A stretch of DNA of 63,697 nt, the filler included, from Collodictyon triciliatum (taxonomy: Eukaryota): assembly GCA_043381765.1 (NCBI GenBank). It is 7 parts of 7 records of this genome, joined end to end, with 100 filler letters (N's around TTAATTAATTAA, not from the genome) between each part and the next. Parts side by side here need not be neighbours in the genome. Positions count along the whole stretch, not along the records: positions 19,246 to 28,764 come from JBHJMP010002975.1; 6 more parts are not named here. One strand, 5' to 3'. The notes under the pieces were generated by a model, which saw nothing but the letters and a program-made list of their open reading frames with translations, ran no database searches and was not told the DNA's origin. The position numbers were made by a program, and so were the translations under genes. Below, one piece after another: positions 25,880 to 62,034 of this stretch. Within the stretch, counting starts at the first letter, position 1, and each line of letters begins with the position of its first letter.

Positions 25880-27740
25880 TTAAAAGAACTTTCTTGAGTG
25901 TATTTTTAGCGCTGTTAAGTCCCTTGTCAAGAATACACTTTGTTTGCTTTCTGAACGATTGCATTCTTCACATATGAGACATCTAGACATCTATACAACT
26001 TTTTTGAATTTCCTTTCAGTTGCATACAACCAGTTCTTTTTCGCAGTTGCAGCACATCTTGGAGTTCTAAATTCATCTACACTAACTATTTCAAAACGTT
26101 TGGATAGTATTTTTCGTAATCCTCTTCCAATTGCTGGCTTAAAATGTTTCATTGGAGATTTTCTGCTTCAGTCTCCATACGCCAACAACATCCTTGCCAA
26201 ATGCCTTTTCGATTCGGTCCATAAACAATTCTTCACTTCTTTTTGTATTAACACACTGTCTCCATATCATCTTTCGAAAAGTTACCTGTTCATAAAATCT
26301 GGATAATTCTATCTGGTATCTTGATTTCATAGATACATATTTTCGAAATTATACATAATCGACCGTGTATGAATTATGTTTACTCAGTTCTTTCTCTAAA
26401 TCGATTATAGATACTTTTGACGTCTCAAGCCGCTAATTCTCTTCAAAAGTCATGAAACCAAAAGAAACAGCACTTTGTAAATCTGTTGTCATGTACACCC
26501 TGAAGTATTGAACTTTTTTTCTCGTGCAAGAGTTTATTTTGTGATTTTCAAGAGATTTGCTATCATGTCTTGTTTGGTGTGCCGTGTAACGTAATTTCTT
26601 GCCTGTCTCATCCGCCATGTAAACAAAATTAAACTTGCCTGCGTCCACTCAAACTAGTATTTTTTTTGTCGCTATTAAAGATAGCTGCTCTTCGGAAAGT
26701 TCATATATATACATATTCTTGGGGGTTTTTTTTTGATTATGTTGAAATTTTGAATTTGAAATACCTTTCTTTCCAAGCAATGATGACACCGCCAAGCCGT
26801 CTGTTTGTATCATCTATTTAAAAATGTAGTCTGTTTGATGAAAGACCCTCTTCTTCATTTCAAACAAATCATCCCATCGTTTCTCTTTGCATCCTGATAT
26901 ATTCTTCATTAATGATATGTTTCATATAATACTAATAGATCTATCAAACATGCAATATCTAGAGTAATATGGCATGGTATATTGTTCGTTCTCATAAGGA
27001 TTGGTTGAAACAGTTTGGCACCAATGTCCTCAAAAAATACGATTCATGTATATCAGACATGGAATGTACTTATTTGGATTGACTTTGACGTCATATTTGA
27101 TACTATTTACAATATCGCTGCGAATGATATGGCGCAAATGCGTTGTAGTCCACTCTTTATATTATTCCAGTATGTCGAAATTCTTGAAGATGGCTTTTTT
27201 TAACTTTAGTAACTCTGGCTTTTTAATAGCTTCTGTAATATTCTCATCTTAAGGAACTATTTGATTTATAAAGCTCAGTAATCTCTTTACAAAATGCTCC
27301 TTAATGTTATTAAGATAAGCTGTGAACATTTGCTTCGCTAAACACGGTAACACATGAGATAAACCAACCAACAGAAAGCGTTCTTATCAGGATAAAAGGA
27401 ACTGAAAATCATAGAGATAAAAAAGTCATCATGGCGATTTTCATATATCTGGTTTTTTTGTTTTAATCTTACGGGTCTATCTTGTGAAACTATTCTGACT
27501 GTCTTTAAGCGTACAAAAAAACATTTCATCGATTGTTGGGAGTTGTTGTGAATTCAGTATGTAACATCTTGCAAACAGATAAGTGTCGGTAACCAATTTA
27601 TGACACAATAAAACTGTATTGTTGACTTTGTCATAGTCATCCGAATTCTTTACAATCGACTTTAGATTTGTTTTTACATTTCGATAGTGTGGTTTTACAG
27701 AGTTTAGATTCCCAAACTCAAGGTGTTTTCTTTTCTTCAT
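25880..27740 (-). pseudogene. Degenerate Fanzor1 (eukaryotic TnpB-like RuvC endonuclease), intronless, with several frameshifts and stops
   Basis: Joined minus-strand frames give VKTNLKSIV...LVTDTYLFARCYIL, MFTAYLNNIKEHF, IQTDGLAVS, RuvC-I ILV*VDAGKFNFVYM, FYEQVTFRKMIWRQCVNTKRSEELFMDRIEKAFG, RuvC-II VSVDEFRT(S)KMCCNC, zinc finger LYRCLICEEC and RuvC-III FLTRDLNSAKN. Confidence 0.82.
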
Positions 27741-28633
27741 CTGAAAGTCTTTGTTTTACTTTTTCCTTGAGAAAACTACCAAGTTTTTAATTTTAATAAA
27801 ACTTTAGTCAATCGGTCAATTTAATATATATATATTGAACTGCACAAAATCAATTATGTAAAATTAAGCATCTGCCAAGACCCTCAAAATGTGCGCTATG
27901 TAGAAAAACACACAAAGTTTTTTTTTTTTTCAGAAGTGATTTGTGACAAAACGCTGAGAGCCGATTCAGCGAGTCCGAAAGGACAGCCGTATAGCCATTG
28001 CGACTGAACGTCAAGATATCGGCCCCAAACAACATGATTACCGCCGCAAGTGTGGATAGTATGCTTTTTTGAGATGCATGTTTGGTGGCAGGTTTATAGG
28101 GTGGGTTCTGTCTGGGTCAAGGCAACGGCTTGTTTGTATTTTTGAATTTTAATGCGATACAAGATTTACATAAGGGAACATAAAATACAGATTGATTATA
28201 GGAATAGTACGAGATTATTAAGTATTTTAAATCTTAATTAAATACTAATCGTGCTATTATATGATTCAGGTTGTTTCTTGGATTCGTCAAAGCTCCTGCT
28301 TTTGTCAACGCATATTTAATTCGATGGTTGTCTGTGCAATAAACTGCTATAAATTTATGGGTACATTATCATTGTATAAAAAGTGATGTGCCTTGAAGGG
28401 AATAAAACCAAATTTGTCACAACCTTTGTAATGAAGTTTATTCATTTACAGGCTGAGTGAGACCGAAGAGAAATGAAAAAGAAAAAGAAAGGAAAAGAAA
28501 AGAAAAAGAAAAAAAGGAGAAAAAGAAAAAGGGAAAAAAGAAATGAATTAGGGCAACTAATACTGAGCACGATATTCATACTTATCCTGCTGCCCGTGGG
28601 TCGATGGTTTGAGCTCGATATGTTTTTTATTCC

Positions 28634-28754
<121 letters not shown>

Positions 28755-28764
28755 ATTGTTAGGA

Positions 28765-28864
28765 NNNNNNNNNNNNNNNNNNNNNNNNNNNNNNNNNNNN
28801 NNNNNNNNTTAATTAATTAANNNNNNNNNNNNNNNNNNNNNNNNNNNNNNNNNNNNNNNNNNNN
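28765..28864. other. Artificial contig linker
   Basis: N-TTAATTAATTAA-N. Confidence 0.97.
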
Positions 28865-29024: not shown

Positions 29025-29911
29025 ATGACACCCAAGACTCGTCGGCAACTCCCTTTTAATGCTCCACCATCCACATCCTGGTTATCACCAAATCTATTAT
29101 TGGAAGGTGGCCTGGATGAAAGTTCATTTTCTCTACCCTTGAATGCGTCCTCATCTTGTACGTGTCTGAACTCATGCGTTGATAGTGATACTAATTGAAT
29201 ATCATGGTGTTGTTCCTTCCTTTTTCGTAAATGATAGAATTCGCCTTTAAAGTATAACTTTTTTTTTATGAAATATTATATCATTATCCATGAATTAAAG
29301 GTAGTTCATTAAAAATCAAAGATCTGAGGAAAAAAGGAAATGAAATTTCTCTTTTAAGTGCTCGCTCGAACCACATACTTAAATCTCCAGGTTTGTTCCT
29401 GTAGATGAACTTGCTGAATAATATGGCCGTATAATTGGAATACATTAAAATCCCTTGCGTCAAGTAGCTTATTTATGGTATTTGCATCAAGACTGCCAGA
29501 GTGAAATTGTGTTTTTATCCATCTATGATGCATATCATAGATCACACATCAGACTCTCGTGCAACGGAATCACCAAACCAGTCAGGATATAACCTGCTCG
29601 TGGAACCTCCAAACGATGGGAATTTGTTCCGTGGATTTCCTGCCAGAAAGCCCACTCGGCCGCCCACTTCACCACCCAAGCAAGGAGAGAATGCAGCTTC
29701 GGTGAAAAATGTGCAATCAAAAGGGAGCTCCAAGTAGCGCCATCAATTCAAATGAGAACAATTATGCGAGTCAATGTGGCAAAAGGAGCATCCAAAATAA
29801 TAATTCAAATATATATTATAATTCTTTTGGAAATCATATTTGCATCATAGGAGGAACACTGACTCTGCATCTCAAAATCCAAAAGTCTCGAACGGTAGAC
29901 TTGTTCATTGC

Positions 29912-30008
<97 letters not shown>

Positions 30009-33000
30009 CGTAGTGACCAATAAATAGCGATAAAACATATATAACTCAGACGGATTTGATTCACAGACACGCCACGAAGGGATGGTTTCAAAGGCAAGGA
30101 CGCAGACTATGCGAAGTATCAAGAACGTGAATTCAAAAAGGCAGCATCACATGAAGTAGAAAATTATTTCATTTCACTTATTCTAAATTTAAGCTCACGA
30201 ATTACAATGAATTTAATCAAAATTTTGAGTTTATGTCGCTAAATAAATCTATGTTTATGTGACTTGCCAAAGGAGATTGAAAGTATTATAAATTAATTTA
30301 ACTGATTGATTCCAGACAGCTAGTCCCAAGATTTTTTTGGACGAGGTGATGAAAGAAGAAACAAACACATATGATGAGGAATTTGTTGATAATTTGGAAA
30401 CATTCAGCGCTCCTCTGAGAAAAGCTGTGATCTTGGAGCTTCTTCGGCAATTGAGACATCGAAACTCATTGCTTAGCACAATCAAATCTATCAACGCAGA
30501 GCTGAATCATGAGGTTGGATATTTGCTTTTCTTCCACTCATTCGTATTCTACCTTTTTATTCACCTGTACACATGGAGCAAAGGAAAGGAAAACGAGAAT
30601 AATTTCTATATATATATATGTATATCAATATGTTTTTTTCTGTATTGACATTGAACTCATAATTATCCCTATTAGACAGCCATGAGGCGTGTTGTGAACG
30701 AGGCGTGTGATTTTCTCAATGCAGACAGGGCGTGCCTATTTTGGATTGACGAAAAGCGACAACAAATAGTCAGCAAGGTTTGCTGTTTCTAAGCAATAAT
30801 ACATGTGCGTAATAGATCTACATTTCGATGAAAGTATTTATGTCTGAATATTACTCTTAAGGTGCTGTCCATAAGGAATTCGCAGGATGAGATTCGATTT
30901 GAGATAGGGAGGGGCATCGCAGGATATGTGGCGCAGACAGGACAGTTTTTGAATATACCAGATGCCCATGAGTAGGCCCCAATAAATTGTGAAACAGTTA
31001 AACTTATAACGAATAAATCCCCTCGATCAATTTACATATCCAACTCAAATGCACAATTGATATAGGATACGTAAATCATCATAATTCTCTTGAACATTCT
31101 CGACATTTTTTTTAATCTAACAAAAAAAAATTAATAGAAATTCCTTATTTAACCCTGCCTTCGACCAAAAAACGGGATATCGAACGCGGGGGATTCTTTG
31201 CATGTGTATTCGAGATATCCAAGGACGTAAATGTGCTGTAATGCAAGTTATCAACAAAATGTCAGGCGATGGCGCATTCAGCGAAGAGGACCAGAAAGAC
31301 ATGGAAATATTTGCCGTTCAGGCAGGAAATAGTTTGCGAAACGGATTGTTATACGATGCAGCAGTGAAGGTTCCTTGCTAGTTTTAAGTTATATACTAAT
31401 ATATAAGTGTTAAGTTTATAAAATTATTATACGCGACGTGCACCAGGACAATTAATTTACAATAATGGGGTGTTAGGCGCAACATAAGATATCTGTGCTT
31501 TTGGATGTATCGAAACAATTGGCATCAGAACTGAACTTGACAGAATTGTGTAAAATAATCATGTCGAAGGCAAAAGAACTTCTCGAGGCCGATCGCTGCA
31601 CCCTCTTCCTAGGTATTGATAAACAATGCGGAACGATTTAAAACCCTCAGATTTTTCTCGGAGTTTTTTGCATTAAATACACAACGATGTCATTCTGAAA
31701 AAATTAATGATACTGTCGCATACAGTGGACGAGAAAACCAGAGAACTGTGGTCCAAAGTCGCAGACGGCTCTTCTGTTATACGCTTCCCGATGACCGTAG
31801 GGATAGCCGGGCATGTTGCGTCGACTGGTGAATATTTTTATTTAATATATTTCGATAGAATAATAATATGTCGTGGTCGGCTAAATCTGGAGCCCATAAA
31901 TAATTTTAATAAAAACAATATAATGAATAAAAGGTGAAACATTAAATATTCCTGATGCATATTTGGACCCTCGATTCAACCCAGATGTGGACAGAAAATC
32001 TGGCTACAAGTATTTGCATAAAAAATGAAAAGAAAAGACTCTTGTTCAAACAAAACACTGTATCATTTATTTATTTATTATTTATTTATTTATTTATTTG
32101 CTCGGAACATTCATCAGGACAAATAGTATCTTATGTATGCCGATCAAGAATGCGCGAGGAACTATAATTGGGGTGACCCAAATGATTAACAAATTGGATA
32201 ATTCATTTTTTGACGAAGACGACGAGCGGCTGCTTTTCGCATTCAGTTCGCAGGTATTTTTTCTTTTTTAAAAAAGGGGGCTTGTTTATTCATAAGGAAT
32301 CGGATTACATTTCTTTTTTGTTTTTTCATTTAATGGATTTTTTTTAAGGCTTCTGTGAGTTTGGAAAATTCGAAGCTCTTTCAAAGCACAACGGATATGC
32401 GGAATTTTCTTGAAAGCATATTGAAAAGTATAACCAATCTTGTGCTTGTTCTCGACATGTCTGGGCTGATGCTTACTGCAAATAGACCCACGATATCGTT
32501 CCTCGGTGTTGATGAAGAGGTAAGAAGTTGTCTCTCTTTAGTTGGCATCCACCCTCTCATATCATAGTTATAATACATATCAGCGTCCTCATTGTAAAGC
32601 ATCAATGTCAAAAATTAGAAATTAATCAATTCTATCGTAGACTTTGAAGAAGCTGTCATACGAGTCATGGCTGGGAGCGAATAATCGAATTTTGTTGGAG
32701 GATATTAAGAATGCATTCAGCAGCACAGAGCCAAAATCGATGACAGACTATGAGTACCACGTTCCTTACGAATCTGACGGAGATGGCTCAATCAAAACTA
32801 TAAATTACACTGTAGTGGCGTTGATAGACTCTGAACTGAAGCAAACTGGCGTGGTCTTGGTCTTGGAGGATGTCTCTCCCCAAAAGAAGCTCCAGACCAC
32901 GCTCGGTAGATACATGTCTCCAGCCCTAGCAGATGAGGTAGATATTCTGGTTATCTTCATGCGTGTTTTATTTTGACTTGCCATCTCCCTTCTTACATCA

Positions 33001-38362: not shown

Positions 38363-38462
38363 NNNNNNNNNNNNNNNNNNNNNNNNNNNNNNNNNNNNNN
38401 NNNNNNTTAATTAATTAANNNNNNNNNNNNNNNNNNNNNNNNNNNNNNNNNNNNNNNNNNNN
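38363..38462. other. Artificial contig linker
   Basis: N-TTAATTAATTAA-N. Confidence 0.97.
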
Positions 38463-47973: not shown

Positions 47974-48073
47974 NNNNNNNNNNNNNNNNNNNNNNNNNNN
48001 NNNNNNNNNNNNNNNNNTTAATTAATTAANNNNNNNNNNNNNNNNNNNNNNNNNNNNNNNNNNNNNNNNNNNN
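47974..48073. other. Artificial contig linker
   Basis: N-TTAATTAATTAA-N. Confidence 0.97.
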
Positions 48074-56487: not shown

Positions 56488-57033
56488 NNNNNNNNNNNNN
56501 NNNNNNNNNNNNNNNNNNNNNNNNNNNNNNNNNNNNNNNNNNNNNNNNNNNNNNNNNNNNNNNNNNNNNNNNNNNNNNNNNNNNNNNNNNNNNNNNNNNN
56601 NNNNNNNNNNNNNNNNNNNNNNNNNNNNNNNNNNNNNNNNNNNNNNNNNNNNNNNNNNNNNNNNNNNNNNNNNNNNNNNNNNNNNNNNNNNNNNNNNNNN
56701 NNNNNNNNNNNNNNNNNNNNNNNNNNNNNNNNNNNNNNNNNNNNNNNNNNNNNNNNNNNNNNNNNNNNNNNNNNNNNNNNNNNNNNNNNNNNNNNNNNNN
56801 NNNNNNNNNNNNNNNNNNNNNNNNNNNNNNNNNNNNNNNNNNNNNNNNNNNNNNNNNNNNNNNNNNNNNNNNNNNNNNNNNNNNNNNNNNNNNNNNNNNN
56901 NNNNNNNNNNNNNNNNNNNNNNNNNNNNNNNNNNNNNNNNNNNNNNNNNNNNNNNNNNNNNNNNNNNNNNNNNNNNNNNNNNNNNNNNNNNNNNNNNNNN
57001 NNNNNNNNNNNNNNNNNNNNNNNNNNNNNNNNN
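56488..57033. other. Assembly gap (Ns, no spacer)
   Basis: About 546 Ns without the TTAATTAATTAA linker. Confidence 0.95.
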
Positions 57034-57583: not shown

Positions 57584-57683
57584 NNNNNNNNNNNNNNNNN
57601 NNNNNNNNNNNNNNNNNNNNNNNNNNNTTAATTAATTAANNNNNNNNNNNNNNNNNNNNNNNNNNNNNNNNNNNNNNNNNNNN
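57584..57683. other. Artificial contig linker
   Basis: N-TTAATTAATTAA-N. Confidence 0.97.
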
Positions 57684-57816: not shown

Positions 57817-60800
57817 ATTTCTTCGATTAGCGAAGGGTTAAAGAACATGGGCAATCTCGAAGTTTTAGATTTAAGCTACAATCAAGTAAACACGATCTGC
57901 ATTGAAATTGTGTCATGAGTGATACACTGCATTTATTGGGGTTTTCGAATTTACCAACAAATTAGGGTCATAATAATTATACAAATTTGAGTGCACCTAT
58001 ATGACCTATTCTTAATATTTAGATAAACCGGATAGAAAATATCATTCTTTCCCTATTCTCTGTGAAAATCCTGAATTTATCTAATAATCAGGTAGTCTTT
58101 ATATTTCGTTGGCATATCGTGACAGCATATAATATAGACATTATTTTATGTAGATTTCATAAAAGGAGGTTATGTAGAAAATTGAATCCAAACGACTTTT
58201 TTTTTACTAGATATCTCAGATTCCAGGGGTAATAGCAAACTTAACTAGCTTATTAGAGCTCAACATTTCTGATAACGCGGTAATTTTTTAGCTGACTGTA
58301 TGATTGTTTGCTTCAACTTATCATCTTCATTTCAAATATGCTTTCAAAGTTAATGTGTGTTAATTAATATTAAATAAATCTTAGATTCGGCACTTACCAT
58401 TGCCACTAGGGACGATCAAAAGTCTCAGAGATGGACTCGTGGCGATAGATAATCCAATACAAAACGTTCCTGAGAACGTAATCAAGCAAGGGTCTCAAGC
58501 CATTTTCGATTATCTGGTGGAATCAAGTGCTGGTGTTGTAAAATGGACTCAAGGAAGACTTTTGCTATTAGGAGAAGGTGGAACTGGAAAAACAACACTA
58601 TCAAAATCAATTTCTCAAAAATCAGGACAATTTCGCAGCGTAACCAGTGAAAAACGTCAAATTACTGATGGAATAGAAGAAATGGATATTCTTATGCATG
58701 ACATGAGCGTGGGTAATTTGGGAGTGCCCATGTCTGTAAAAATTTGGGATTTTGGTGGCCAGGAAGAATTTCAAGTGACTCATCCATTCTTTTTATCATC
58801 CGGTGCAATGGTTTTGATTTTATACAGAGTTGACCAAAATAAGGAAAGGAACAATCTTGGTAGATGGATTAAGATGCTGGATGACTTTGCCCCCAATTCT
58901 AAAATCGTGATAGCTGGGACTCATGTGGATGCTGCAGTAACTTCATATGAGGAAGAAATGGAGGCTGAAATAGAGAAAATAAAACGAGACAACAACCTTC
59001 ACCTATTTTTAAACACTGATATTAAGGTGAGTAACAAGACGGGTAAAGGATTGAATGAGCTCAAGCTAATCATATTTCAAGGAATGATGCAATTAGACAA
59101 TATGAATAAAGACGTTCCTAAATCCTATATCAGCTTAAAAGAGTACCTTGAGTCCAAAGGGAAAGTGACAAAGTATGAACGTGTTGATTTGACTTACGAA
59201 TTTGGACGTGAGAAGCTTCAGATCGACCAAAATAAGTGTGAGAGTGCCCTGAGGTTCCTTCATGACCTTGGGTCTATTGTTTGGTATTCACGGTATGAGA
59301 ACGTCCGAGACGTAATTTTTCTCGATCCTCTCTTTCTTATCAACATATTCAAATGTGTATTCAGCTTCAAGGGTGTTGGAAAAAACTCCAATGGAATCAT
59401 TTTACAGAGTAAACTCAGAGAGAAAATTAATAGGGAATTTGGTACAGAATTGAACGAGACTGTCTTTGAGACTATTTTAAAAATATTTGACCACTTTGGT
59501 TTGGGAATCAAATTTAACCTTGAATGCATAGCATTTCCTTCCCTTATGGAAGATTGCCCAAACACAAAGATATTTTGGAATGACAAACCAGAATCAAACT
59601 GTATCGCCGAAATTTCAGTAGACCTGATCTATGTCAACGAAATTCAACTATCTGATTTAAGTAATATTATAATTCAAGCTCTTCGATTCGTTAGTATCTC
59701 AAATGGCAGAGCTCAATATGATGATATATTTTATAGAAACGCCTCGCTAATTCATGCTACAGTTACTGATACGAATTATCCTGAAGAAATCAATCTGATA
59801 CCTGGGGACGACTTTGTCAGCTTTTGTTACATACAAAAAGACAAGATATCGTTCACGTTGCGCAAATATGATAGAGGTATAACAAAAAGAAAATATGTAG
59901 ATATCTTTAAATTATTATCATTCACTGTCAAAAATATAACATCAATTCGTGCAAATTTGATTTTGGAATGTCGATTCGAATGCTACGAGTGTAGAGCAAG
60001 GGAGGTGGCTGGGTTTGTCCGAATTTCTGAAAAGTTTACTATTATAAACCCTCTAAAGTGCTCTGAGGGCCATGTTATCGAATTTGATACGCTGAGAAGA
60101 GGTCGAGTATATTTAGAAGAAGGTATATTCTAAATAAAAGTTATATTCGTTGATGTTCGTGCATTATCCAATTTATTTTCATGTTACATGAATACAAGAT
60201 CATTTATCGATCTTAAATCATAGATATTAAATTATAAATGTAATTTGACATAGGTGTTTCAAAAAGATTTGAATCTGTTATGAAAAACAAACAACACATA
60301 ATTCGAACTCCTGCCACAAATATGGATCTGAATTCAATTAATACGAGCCTAAAGGAAATTTGGATGAAAGAGCCTATTGAACTTGTCGAGTATATTGCAA
60401 AAGGTTCTTTTGGTCGAGTATACAAAACATTTTTGAGGGATAAAGAATGTATCGTCAAGATTCAAACAGTCCAACAAAATGGGGAACAAAGTGTTGGCGA
60501 AGTCATAAAGTCATTGATTTATGAAAGCAAATATATGCATGAATGCCGTGAATGTAAGCAAATTGTTCAAATATATGGCGTGTATCGAAATGATTGCAAT
60601 TTCTTCATGCTGATGGAATACGCAGGGGTCTCGTTGAAAAAAATCATGGAAAGGGAAGAGACACGACCTAATATAGACAGCATCATTAAATATACAAAAA
60701 GTATATGCAAAGGACTCATTTTTATGCATTCTCGTGACCTGTATCATGAGGACTTAAAAGCTGACAACATTATGATACTGAATGATAGCGTTAAGATTGC

Positions 60801-62034
60801 CGATTTTGGTATTGTTAGTCGTCGCGAAATTGAAAAGGTAGGCTCAAATCTACCTACGAAATATGGAGAAAACAAACAAGACGGAACATCAAATTGGCAA
60901 GCCCCTGAAATACATGTAGTTGTCTCAAAACCACTTTATGATGACGGTAAAATGTATGGAAAGGATGGAATAAATGTTGGTCACCGTGGAGAGCCTAGTA
61001 ATGTTTACGCACTCGGAATGGTTGTATGGTTCATGTTTTCTGGGATTGAACCTTTTAGAAATGAACTTGGACCGCAAAGTTTTACCATCAAAGGGAAGAG
61101 ACCGGAAATACCAGCAAACACACCAACAGAGCTGATTCATTTAATCAAAGTATGCTGGAAGCAAAATTATAAGCTGAGACCTTCCATGTTTACGATAAGC
61201 AAATACCTGGATGAAATAACTCATCACTCCAGGACTTCCAGATCAAAAGTCGAAGAAATACTTCCAATTAAATATTCTATGCTTCAGGATATGTATTTAG
61301 GAGAGCTTGTGGAGTATCTTCATGATAATGGTTTTGCTAATTTAGGTACAAAGATTTCTGAGATGGTGTGTGAAACATTTGAGGGTATAGAAATGATAAA
61401 AAATGAACAAAAGTTGATGGATGCGTATCATATAGACCAAGTTGAACTCGAGCAATTGATTCAACTATCCAACCAAAGAATAGACCCAATATATAGGTCA
61501 AACCACCAATACGTAAGAAATTTTACCCATTATCAACTCGCAAATTACTTGAAGAAAATCGACGGGTTGGATTACAAAAAAATTCTAAGCAAGGTAGTCG
61601 CCCTAAAATTAGATGGGCCAACGATATCCAGCCTTGATAAACAAGAGGTATACAAACGTGTTTCCGTCAGCGCAGTGGAGATCCAAAATGCAGTCAAATT
61701 GATAAACGATGTCATGAAAGAAGAGGGGAAAAGGAGACGACCTACGCCACTGAAACATAGAAAGATCAATCAGCAAAGAAGTGAGTTTCAAAGGAGGGAC
61801 TCTATAAGTGCCATAAACGATTCTTCAACAAGCTCCAACGTTTCGGGATATAATCCAAACTCAACACCCCCTCGTAATCTGATGCATTCAAGAGCACGTT
61901 TGCCATTATTAAATCAATCGGTGATTAGTTTAAACGCATCATTTACCAGCGATTCAGGCTCAATCATTACCACAGGAGGCTCTTTGCCCAGATTACCAAA
62001 AATCAAAAGGGCAGATTCGAATCAATTAAAGTAA
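57817..62034 (+). CDS. Roco family protein paralog, 5'-partial: LRR-Roc-COR-kinase-SAM-like x2-disordered tail
   Basis: 69-bp LRR exons at 57817-57885, 58023-58091 and 58211-58279. Roc: GEGGTGKTT, WDFGGQEEFQVTHPFFLSSGA, GTHVD. COR domain, intron ~60123-60253, then kinase YHEDLKADNI, DFG, GTSNWQAPE. Collinear with the gene at 919-8005. Confidence 0.92.

What the first reader, a model, noticed from the sequence alone, without database searches (positions are those of the whole stretch)
25880..27740. Decayed Fanzor1 (TnpB-like RNA-guided endonuclease) hidden as fragmented small ORFs
Seen: an intronless ~1.9-kb stretch in an intron-dense genome. Joined across frameshifts it gives the RuvC triad in Fanzor order: V(G>stop)VDAGK (D ~26643), VDEFRT(S)K followed directly by CxxC (~26075), a second CxxC, then RDLNSAKN (~25920). 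Lesions include an apparent GGA>TGA change before the catalytic Asp, single-base deletions, and an 8-bp tandem duplication TAGATGTC at ~25979-25994. Established: a catalytic Glu shifted next to the zinc finger is typical of Fanzors, and this size fits Fanzor1. Inference: this lineage hosts or hosted a Fanzor element family. The frame is still reconstructable, so intact copies may exist elsewhere in the genome.
Basis: partly seen in the sequence, partly recalled or inferred. Interest (0 to 1): 0.88.

Follow-up and report, generated by a model that had tools for sequence, protein, structure and literature searches.

The report
Dead Fanzor1 nuclease gene relic
This stretch is the broken, inactive remains of a jumping-gene-borne RNA-guided DNA cutter (Fanzor1) whose closest intact relatives sit in mariner-type transposons of aquatic giant viruses; it is real, but it is a kind of relic already described.

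Summary
On the minus strand, 27740-25806 aligns end to end with an intact 648-aa metagenomic protein (P0003). tblastn gives E 1e-150. A frameshift-aware alignment gives 369 of 633 codons identical.

The gene is broken by 10 stop codons and 11 frame changes.

It belongs to Fanzor1:
- A profile of 21 homologues matches solved Fanzor1 structures at E 1e-49 to 2e-72.
- An AlphaFold model of P0003 superposes on SpuFz1 with TM 0.69/0.73. Fanzor2 and TnpB score about 0.2-0.35.

The clade lies mostly on giant-virus contigs. At least 276 viral loci encode relatives. There the gene sits in TA-flanked Tc1/mariner-type elements with about 30-bp inverted ends. 24 of 81 loci also carry a DDE_3 transposase, and the 3' tail is a covarying RNA.

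The window copy has no transposase. No terminal repeat or guide-RNA scaffold could be shown for it.

Freshwater metagenomes hold many diverged copies of the roughly 2.4-kb unit, and several lack this copy's lesions.

Verdict: a new member of a known kind, of modest interest.

The parts
25806..27740 (-). Decayed Fanzor1 coding region. ATG at 27740. It aligns to residues 1-642 of the intact homologue P0003. It carries 10 stop codons and 11 frame changes.
   Evidence: tblastn E 1.2e-150; frameshift-aware alignment with 369 of 633 codons identical
26643..26651 (-). RuvC-I motif V*VDAGK. TGA (26651-26649) sits at a Gly position. The catalytic Asp codon is 26645-26643.
   Evidence: D364 is invariant in the 21-sequence alignment A1
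26168..26176 (-). AYGD*S. Gly (26176-26174) occupies the canonical RuvC-II Glu position. TGA (26170-26168) sits at the invariant Trp.
   Evidence: Other copies in metagenomes read C instead of T at 26168 on the + strand, which makes the codon TGG.
26063..26074 (-). VDEFRT. The relocated catalytic Glu is codon 26074-26072. The Ser codon that follows is lost in a frame change at 26062.
   Evidence: E555 is invariant in A1
25961..26054 (-). C4 zinc finger. CxxC at 26054-26043 and CxxC at 25972-25961, interrupted by frame changes and by the 8-bp tandem duplication TAGATGTC at 25993-25978.
   Evidence: C562, C565, C587 and C590 are invariant in A1
25919..25924 (-). Arg-Asp of RuvC-III (RD|LNSAKN), followed by a frame change at 25918.
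   Evidence: R603 and D604 are invariant in A1
27741..28143 (-). 5' non-coding part of the repeated unit, about 400 bp. The left end is not resolved and lies somewhere around 28090-28200.
   Evidence: Metagenome contigs 85-99% alike cover up to about 28125-28143 and not beyond. Viral Fanzor-only elements have 412-459 bp between the left end and the ATG.
25739..25805 (-). 3' tail of the unit. The candidate right tip is CACCTTT on the + strand at 25739-25745. It is identical to the first 7 bases of the viral terminal repeat, but this is not statistically significant.
   Evidence: Homology among metagenome copies reaches at least about 25759. A covariance model of the viral tail RNA does not match here.

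Best explanation
This is a dead, transposase-less copy of a Fanzor1 gene. Fanzor1 is the eukaryotic and viral TnpB-like RNA-guided DNA endonuclease.

The copy belongs to the lineage carried by Tc1/mariner (IS630-type) transposons of aquatic giant viruses. It lies between ordinary cellular genes of an unplaced eukaryote.

Shown here:
- The gene identity, the full set of catalytic and zinc-finger motifs, and the lesions.
- Family membership, by sequence profile and by fold.
- The anatomy of the viral relatives: TA | about 30-bp inverted repeat ... [DDE_3 transposase, divergently oriented, in some] ... Fanzor1 ... structured 3' RNA that ends at the right inverted repeat | TA.
- The existence of many diverged copies of the same roughly 2.4-kb unit in freshwater metagenomes.

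Inferred:
- In intact relatives the 3' tail is transcribed as the guide (omega) RNA. Its scaffold ends at the transposon boundary, so the flank supplies the guide.
- The nuclease cuts sites matching that flank. As proposed for TnpB, this helps the transposon persist after excision.
- The element reached the host genome by transposition, from a virus-borne or host-resident family. Once immobile, it decayed neutrally.

The window copy itself can do none of this.
For: Identity of the gene:
- Full-length alignment to the intact P0003.
- D, G/E, C4 and RD motifs at the invariant columns of 21 homologues.

Family membership:
- Best PDB matches are Fanzor1 only, both for the broken copy and for the family profile.
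- The AF2 model of P0003 has pLDDT 76.5. Its top 7 Foldseek hits are all Fanzor1, at E 1e-23 to 1e-26.

Viral lineage:
- All 48 database homologues carry PF26935, which the Atlas names DUF8286. The nearest Atlas clusters are 92-100% viral, Nucleocytoviricota.
- In the tree, WINDOW+P0003 (support 1.0) sit among viral-contig sequences.
- Locus L004 has a DDE_3 transposase 320 bp upstream and an mRNA-capping enzyme beside the element.
- A DDE_3 gene lies on the upstream side in 24 of 81 loci.
- A right-end motif lies within 160 nt of the stop in 75 of 80 loci.
- TA-flanked inverted ends are seen in the 14 loci printed.
- The left-end motif lies 412-459 bp upstream of the ATG in 24 of 71 loci.
- The 3' RNA helices are 90.5% paired, against 39-48% when slid. 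18 pairs have changes on both sides, and 0 of 500 shuffles reach this.

Multi-copy unit and context:
- 112 and 143 metagenome contigs lie only on about 25785-28143.
- Cellular genes flank the copy: cyclase, ubiquitin-RING, SPX, kinase and RPS3.
Against: For the window copy, neither terminal inverted repeats nor a TA duplication could be shown. The alignment scores fall within the shuffles.

The covariance model of the viral tail RNA finds nothing at the expected place. The best hit in the 6 kb searched has E 0.17 and lies elsewhere. The fold z-scores are weak, at -0.98 and -1.84.

No DNA of close relatives was available. The closest intact protein is only 58% identical, and the closest viral locus is 47% identical to that protein.

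The metagenome contigs could come from a virus or from another organism, not from paralogues in this host. The unique flank 25300-25687 is uncovered in all four runs.

The direction of any virus-host transfer is not resolved. The tree is rooted on one distant protein, and most sequences have no known host.
Confidence: 0.87

Rival explanations
1. The stretch is part of an endogenous giant-virus insertion, and not a solo transposon copy in host DNA.
For: The clade is overwhelmingly on giant-virus contigs. Fanzor1/mariner elements inside an integrated giant virus of Chlamydomonas, and a Fanzor fragment elsewhere in that host's genome, are described in 10.1101/2024.09.03.611062 (passages).
Against: No viral hallmark was seen in the 63.7-kb window. 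Five of the 10 ORFs scanned gave Pfam matches: four cellular domains (cyclase, ubiquitin/RING, SPX, kinase) and one disordered PT repeat. The other five gave none. RPS3 and Roc-COR-kinase genes are nearby. Metagenome copies stop at the edges of the 2.4-kb unit. I did not scan every ORF of the window.
Confidence: 0.08
2. The gene is functional. The apparent lesions would then be sequencing or assembly errors, a variant genetic code, or programmed frameshifts.
For: About four of 11 frame changes lie in or beside runs of 6-7 identical bases (with for run lengths). This is where long-read assemblies make errors.
Against: All three stop codons occur, opposite nine aligned positions and eight different residues in the homologue: TGA opposite R, G, W; TAA opposite Q, E, Y, K; TAG opposite Y, S. 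No single reassignment fits this. Neighbouring genes are open under the standard code. Three independent metagenome contigs reproduce stops and frame changes, two exactly and one with a single difference. An 8-bp duplication is not a homopolymer error.
Confidence: 0.03
3. It is a host-domesticated or otherwise non-transposon TnpB-like gene, or a different nuclease or transposase family such as DDE.
For: No transposase and no demonstrable transposon ends at this locus.
Against: The gene is heavily decayed, so it is not maintained by selection. There is no DDE-like similarity in the region. The only significant structure and profile matches are Fanzor1, then Cas12/TnpB.
Confidence: 0.02

Closest known systems
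PGv-1-type Mariner elements carrying Fanzor1 in algal giant viruses, and Fanzor1-only elements with Mariner ends (Bao and Jurka 2013, PMC3627910; passages read)
   Same: The nuclease is Fanzor1 with the D...[TS][TS]xx-C4...RD motif and the extra conserved G and E. The viral relatives found here have TA-flanked inverted ends and, in 24 of 81 loci, a Tc1/IS630-type DDE_3 transposase.
   Different: The window copy lies in a cellular genome and has no transposase. Its ends cannot be shown, and it is a pseudogene. I did not compare it directly with PGv-1, because no PGv-1 sequence was in hand.
Fanzor elements of the Chlamydomonas reinhardtii endogenous giant virus, and the Fanzor fragment on host chromosome 17 (10.1101/2024.09.03.611062; passages read)
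   Same: Fanzor1 occurs with an IS630-Tc1-Mariner transposase. Fanzor-only and degraded arrangements exist. A fragment of a virus-type Fanzor lies in host DNA outside the virus.
   Different: The host here is different and unidentified. The copy here is near full-length (642 of 648 residues alignable) and not a short fragment. No resident giant virus was seen in the window.
Solved Fanzor1 nucleases SpuFz1 (8gkh, 9ceu), PpFz1 (9cf0) and GtFz1 (9cer)
   Same: Whole-length profile match at E 1e-67, 1.6e-72 and 5e-49. The fold of the intact homologue P0003 gives TM 0.69/0.73 to SpuFz1. The size is similar: 648 aa against roughly 600-730 modelled residues.
   Different: Only 18-20% identical in the structural alignment. 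Those proteins come from fungal and cryptophyte genomes, not from the giant-virus clade. Their guide RNAs were shown by experiment; none is shown here.
Spodoptera frugiperda ascovirus Fanzor1-only non-autonomous element (Yoon et al. 2023, PMC10711439; passages read)
   Same: The unit carries only the Fanzor1 gene. In that system the guide RNA runs about 15 nt past the transposon end.
   Different: That element belongs to a different transposon family, described in that paper as an unknown family with TIRs and short TSDs. It was not compared by sequence here.

Membership tests
Fanzor1 (TnpB-like RNA-guided endonuclease) | Motif D-X(125,275)-[TS]-[TS]-X-X-[C4 zinc finger]-X(5,50)-RD (Bao and Jurka 2013) | tested here: met
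   The D codon is 26645-26643. T is present (26065-26063), but the next Ser codon is lost to a frame change. The two CxxC are at 26054-26043 and 25972-25961. RD is at 25924-25919. The motif is present but interrupted.
Fanzor1 (TnpB-like RNA-guided endonuclease) | Rearranged RuvC: the canonical RuvC-II Glu is replaced by Gly or Pro, and a conserved alternative Glu lies downstream (Jiang et al. 2023, passages) | tested here: met
   Gly at 26176-26174 (G521 of P0003) and Glu at 26074-26072 (E555). Both are invariant in 21 homologues. The alternative Glu lies 34 residues downstream, against 'approximately 45' in the paper.
Fanzor1 (TnpB-like RNA-guided endonuclease) | Whole-length sequence kinship with characterised Fanzor1, and not with Fanzor2 or TnpB | tested here: met
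   Window read-through: GtFz1 E 2.5e-4 and SpuFz1 E 0.031, with the next hits at E 1 or worse. Family profile: PpFz1 1.6e-72, SpuFz1 1e-67, GtFz1 5e-49. No Fanzor2 or TnpB chain among the 8 hits with E up to 1.
Fanzor1 (TnpB-like RNA-guided endonuclease) | Fanzor1 fold | tested here: met
   Tested on the intact homologue P0003, not on the broken copy. SpuFz1 gives E 1e-26 and TM 0.69/0.73. Fanzor2 (9b0l) ranks 28 with TM 0.21/0.27. TnpB (8h1j) ranks 29.
Fanzor1 (TnpB-like RNA-guided endonuclease) | A structured guide (omega) RNA encoded at the 3' end and abutting the transposon's right end | tested here: inconclusive
   The viral relatives have covarying helices that end at the right inverted repeat. 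In the window, the covariance model gives no hit at the tail and the fold z-scores are -0.98 and -1.84. No RNA data exist.
Fanzor1 (TnpB-like RNA-guided endonuclease) | Intact reading frame, giving a potentially active nuclease | tested here: not met
   10 stops and 11 frame changes. It is a pseudogene of the family, not a working member.
Tc1/mariner (IS630) transposon carrying Fanzor1 | Terminal inverted repeats flanked by a TA duplication | tested here: inconclusive
   Clear in the viral relatives. In the window, left-versus-right and viral-TIR alignments score no better than shuffles. Only a 7-base tip, CACCTTT at 25739-25745, matches.
Tc1/mariner (IS630) transposon carrying Fanzor1 | DDE_3-type transposase gene in the element | tested here: not met
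   tblastn of the L004 transposase against the whole window gives a best E of 1.6. The gene is absent, as in most of the viral units (57 of 81 loci show none within the stretch held).
Fanzor2 / IS607-type | Close to TnpB in sequence and fold; associated with an IS607 serine recombinase | tested here: not met
   Fold match to Fanzor2 is only TM 0.21/0.27. There is no Fanzor2 hit by profile. I did not search specifically for a serine recombinase.
Endogenous giant-virus element | Neighbouring giant-virus hallmark genes | tested here: not met
   Of 10 window ORFs scanned, 5 gave Pfam matches: four cellular domains and one disordered PT repeat. The other 5 gave none. RPS3 and Roc-COR-kinase genes are nearby. 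This is a partial test, because not every ORF was scanned.

The most novel reading that the evidence does not exclude
An unplaced, poorly sampled freshwater eukaryote carries an amplified, partly still intact family of the giant-virus-type mariner/Fanzor1 element. In this reading there are dozens of copies, with a guide-RNA scaffold that has diverged from the viral one. That would be a case of a virus-borne RNA-guided nuclease transposon colonising and proliferating in a cellular genome, and a source of new compact Fanzor1 enzymes of about 650 aa.
Probability: 0.3. Interest if true: 0.45.

Novelty: new member of a known kind. Interest (0 to 1): 0.27.

Why it matters
Fanzor1 enzymes are compact eukaryotic RNA-guided nucleases that interest genome-editing researchers. 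Exchange of these enzymes between giant viruses and their hosts is an active topic.

This copy is dead, so it has no direct use. It does add a data point: the giant-virus mariner/Fanzor1 lineage has left a near full-length relic in the chromosome of a eukaryote with no close relative in the databases searched. Related, less damaged copies circulate in freshwater communities.

The side result may be more useful than the relic. Across 49 viral loci, the 3' tail of these elements is a covarying RNA that ends exactly at the right inverted repeat. This may help define guide RNAs for this clade, although similar scaffolds have been noted before.

Tried and rejected
**Pfam searches on the window copy.** Pfam on eight short fragments and on two read-through translations gave no relevant family. 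The local Pfam copy lacks PF26935. It gives only sub-threshold PF07282 hits on three of the four intact homologues scanned.

**Searches for more copies or closer relatives.**
- The organism's genome is not held, so copies could not be counted in it.
- The metagenome-contig scan with P0003 found one distant locus, 21% identical.
- A viral-contig scan with the window's own read-through found nothing.
- blastn of the unit against 81 loci found only coding-region similarity.
- No second copy or fragment lies in the window.

**Tests for a guide RNA and terminal repeats in the window copy.**
- The covariance model R1 of the viral tail RNA found no hit at the expected tail.
- The terminal-repeat search was not significant.
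- A MAFFT alignment of the window tail to L002, L003 and L005 was unconvincing past the ORF.

**Viral promoter motif.** A giant-virus early-promoter-like octamer (the motif is recalled, not from a call) is absent from 0 of 74 viral upstream regions. I dropped this line.

**Host identification.**
- The Roc-COR ORF has no homologue above 39% identity, and that only over a fifth of the query. The top full-length hits are 23-28% identical.
- RPS3 is 85% identical to one unnamed transcriptome entry and otherwise 67-80% identical to plants, algae, fungi and vertebrates.
- The Atlas gave only broad eukaryotic clusters.
- The host stays unplaced.

**Other blanks.**
- Expression: no RNA holder listed.
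- Rfam: no family at gathering score in the window.
- A variant genetic code is rejected.
Full report
**What is in the sequence.**
On the minus strand an ATG at 27740 opens a frame reading MKKRKHLEFG.... Read straight through with the stops as X, it gives P0001. P0001 finds 48 database proteins at E <= 0.001 among 3206 candidates. The best is P0003, an intact 648-aa protein, at E 4e-144.

tblastn of P0003 against the whole window gives one hit, 27740-25806, at E 1.2e-150. Nothing else scores better than E 0.67. A protein-to-DNA alignment that allows frame changes covers residues 1-642 of P0003 with 369 of 633 codons identical. Along that path lie 9 aligned stop codons, 1 more in an inserted codon, and 11 frame changes.

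- Catalytic Asp of V*VDAGK at 26645-26643, with TGA opposite a conserved Gly.
- AYGD*S, with Gly at 26176-26174 and TGA opposite the invariant Trp.
- Glu of VDEFRT at 26074-26072.
- CxxC at 26054-26043 and at 25972-25961.
- RD at 25924-25919.
- The TAGATGTC tandem duplication at 25993-25978.

These residues fall on invariant columns of an alignment of 21 homologues: D364, G521, W523, E555, C562, C565, C587, C590, R603 and D604.

**Are the lesions real?**
A variant genetic code does not explain them. TGA lies opposite R, G and W. TAA lies opposite Q, E, Y and K. TAG lies opposite Y and S. Neighbouring genes are open in the standard code.

About four of the 11 frame changes lie in or beside runs of 6-7 identical bases, so assembly error cannot be excluded for those.

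Independent data reproduce some lesions:
- Two wastewater-metagenome contigs are identical to 26658-26808 and 26800-26950. They cover the TAG at 26816 and the frame change near 26914.
- A freshwater contig with one difference and no gap covers 27284-27434, which holds two stops and a frame change.

The source organism's own reads were not available.

**What family.**
Pfam does not recognise the short fragments or the read-throughs. The local Pfam copy also lacks PF26935, the family recorded for all 48 homologues. The Atlas names that family DUF8286.

Against solved structures, the broken copy's best matches are Guillardia theta Fanzor1 (E 2.5e-4, three collinear stretches) and Spizellomyces Fanzor1 (E 0.031).

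The 21-sequence profile matches three solved Fanzor1 proteins:
- Parasitella Fanzor1 at E 1.6e-72.
- Spizellomyces Fanzor1 at E 1e-67, over profile positions 5-604.
- Guillardia Fanzor1 at E 5e-49.
- The next hit is Cas12g at E 0.013.

An AlphaFold2 model of P0003 has mean pLDDT 76.5 and pTM 0.71. Its seven best Foldseek hits are all Fanzor1 structures, and SpuFz gives E 1e-26 with TM 0.69/0.73. Mimivirus Fanzor2 ranks 28 (TM 0.21/0.27) and TnpB ranks 29.

Gly at the canonical RuvC-II position, with a conserved Glu just before the zinc finger, is the 'rearranged catalytic site'. Jiang et al. 2023 report it for Fanzors (PMC10530073, passages). It also matches the conserved G and E that Bao and Jurka noted in Fanzor1 (PMC3627910, passages).

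So the gene is a Fanzor1, and in this copy it is a pseudogene.

**Which Fanzor1 lineage.**
- The nearest Atlas clusters to P0003 are 92-100% viral, mostly Nucleocytoviricota.
- A scan of viral contigs found at least 276 loci encoding relatives. The best 80 are 37-47% identical to P0003, and many come from giant-virus bins.
- I built a tree of 127 sequences: the window read-through with X at the breaks, 46 database proteins of 500 aa or more, and 80 viral ORFs. It is rooted on the distant P0050, and shorter proteins were left out. The window copy pairs with P0003 (support 1.0). The pair sits in a nine-member clade with viral loci L002-L005 (support 0.78), inside a 99-member, mostly viral clade (support 0.99).
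- The direction of any transfer is not resolved.

**Anatomy of the viral relatives.**
- Next to the Fanzor gene of L004 lie a divergently oriented DDE_3 (IS630/Tc1-type) transposase, an mRNA-capping enzyme and a helicase.
- A DDE_3 gene lies on the upstream side in 24 of 81 loci.
- Between loci from different contigs, similarity stops about 76-92 bp after the Fanzor stop codon. Upstream it stops about 405-460 bp before the ATG when no transposase is present.
- 75 of 80 loci have the end motif ...AAAGGTGTA within 160 nt of the stop, at 79-83 nt in 46 of them. Unrelated sequence follows.
- The ends are roughly 30-bp inverted repeats (TA|CACCTTTGCACATTTAAAACGCC...) flanked by TA.
- The left tip lies 412-459 bp upstream of the ATG in 24 of 71 non-redundant loci, and further away where a transposase intervenes.

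This is the Mariner/Fanzor1 arrangement described for PGv-1 and its relatives in 2013. It is also described for elements of an integrated Chlamydomonas giant virus. That work includes Fanzor-only and degraded forms and a fragment in host DNA (10.1101/2024.09.03.611062, passages).

The last roughly 140 nt of 49 viral elements form helices with strong covariation. They are 90.5% paired, against 39-48% when partners are slid. 18 pairs have changes on both sides, and 0 of 500 shuffles reach this. The last helix uses the right inverted repeat itself. By analogy with TnpB and Fanzor guide RNAs, I infer this is the guide-RNA scaffold. That is not shown here.

**Anatomy of the window copy.**
It has no transposase: the best tblastn hit has E 1.6. 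No second copy or fragment lies in the window.

Four metagenome runs hold 112, 143, 2 and 10 contigs at least 85% alike. They lie only between about 25785 and 28143, and a loose end extends the homology to about 25759. Nothing lies on 25300-25687. Up to 12 different contigs overlap one site in one run.

The unit is therefore about 2.4 kb: roughly 400 bp of leader, the gene, and a short tail. These are the proportions of the viral Fanzor-only elements. It exists in many diverged variants.

Several of those variants differ from the window exactly at its lesions:
- At 26168, 26435 and 26814 they read a sense codon.
- Near 25916, 26063, 26184 and 27032 they carry indels.

So these lesions are private to this copy or its near kin.

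Whether the variants are paralogues in this host, or copies in other organisms or viruses, cannot be told.

The ends of the window copy could not be shown. The inverted-repeat tests are within shuffles. Only the tip CACCTTT at 25739-25745 matches the viral repeat. The covariance model of the viral tail finds nothing at the tail, and its best hit in 6 kb has E 0.17 elsewhere. The fold z-scores are -0.98 and -1.84.

**Context and host.**
The flanking ORFs carry cellular domains: cyclase, ubiquitin plus RING, SPX and protein kinase. Roc-COR genes and RPS3 are also nearby. I saw no viral hallmark, though I did not scan every ORF.

The host is an unplaced eukaryote. RPS3 is 85% identical to one unnamed transcriptome entry and 67-80% identical to plants, algae, fungi and vertebrates. 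The top full-length Roc-COR homologues are only 23-28% identical.

**How it works.**
The window copy is inert.

For intact relatives I infer the established Fanzor/TnpB scheme. The element's 3' end is transcribed into a scaffold plus a flank-derived guide. The RuvC site (Asp, relocated Glu, Asp) cuts matching DNA. This favours retention or spread of the transposon. Only the sequence, fold and RNA-covariation parts of that scheme are shown here.

**Verdict.**
The thing is a new member of a known kind, already in print for giant viruses and for host-genome fragments. Earlier notes of this scan on other genomes say the same about the viral elements.

Interest is modest. The supplements of the cited papers, which may list this clade, could not be seen.

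Noticed in passing
L002-L081 (viral contigs), last ~140 nt of each Fanzor element; alignment A3: The 3' tails of giant-virus mariner/Fanzor1 elements form five covarying helices. The last helix is built from the right inverted repeat, so the scaffold ends exactly at the TA-flanked boundary. It is a candidate guide-RNA scaffold for this clade.
   Followed up: partly
window 28166-28300 (- strand): This is the best, but weak (E 0.17), hit of the viral tail-RNA model. It lies just outside the left edge of the unit and ends in ...TGTTCCCTTATGTAA, which is reminiscent of the viral right end. It could be chance in AT-rich DNA or the stump of an older neighbouring copy.
   Followed up: no
window 1391-5189 (-) and 58385-62034 (+): Two inverted, clearly paralogous pairs of long intron-free ORFs bracket the window: Roc-COR GTPase followed by a protein kinase. 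The top full-length database homologues of the Roc-COR part are only 23-28% identical, and most named ones are bacterial.
   Followed up: partly
window 9528-9627, 19146-19245, 28765-28864, 38363-38462, 47974-48073, 57584-57683: Pairs of 44-N runs separated by 12 bases recur about every 9.6 kb, and a 546-N run lies at 56488-57033. They look like masking or scaffolding artefacts, not biology.
   Followed up: no
window, many places (e.g. 1391-3508, 10328-11196, 28442-28820, 29805-30146): Very long trinucleotide and other microsatellite runs lie in and between genes. They appear as poly-Y, poly-I/N, poly-L and FVCL repeats in translation.
   Followed up: no
L004:4645-5676 (-) and 23 other viral loci: The DDE_3 transposase lies divergently upstream of Fanzor1, only about 320 bp from its ATG in the closest relatives L002/L004. 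The N termini of the Fanzor proteins, viral ones included, begin with a basic MKKRK-like cluster that resembles a nuclear localisation signal.
   Followed up: partly
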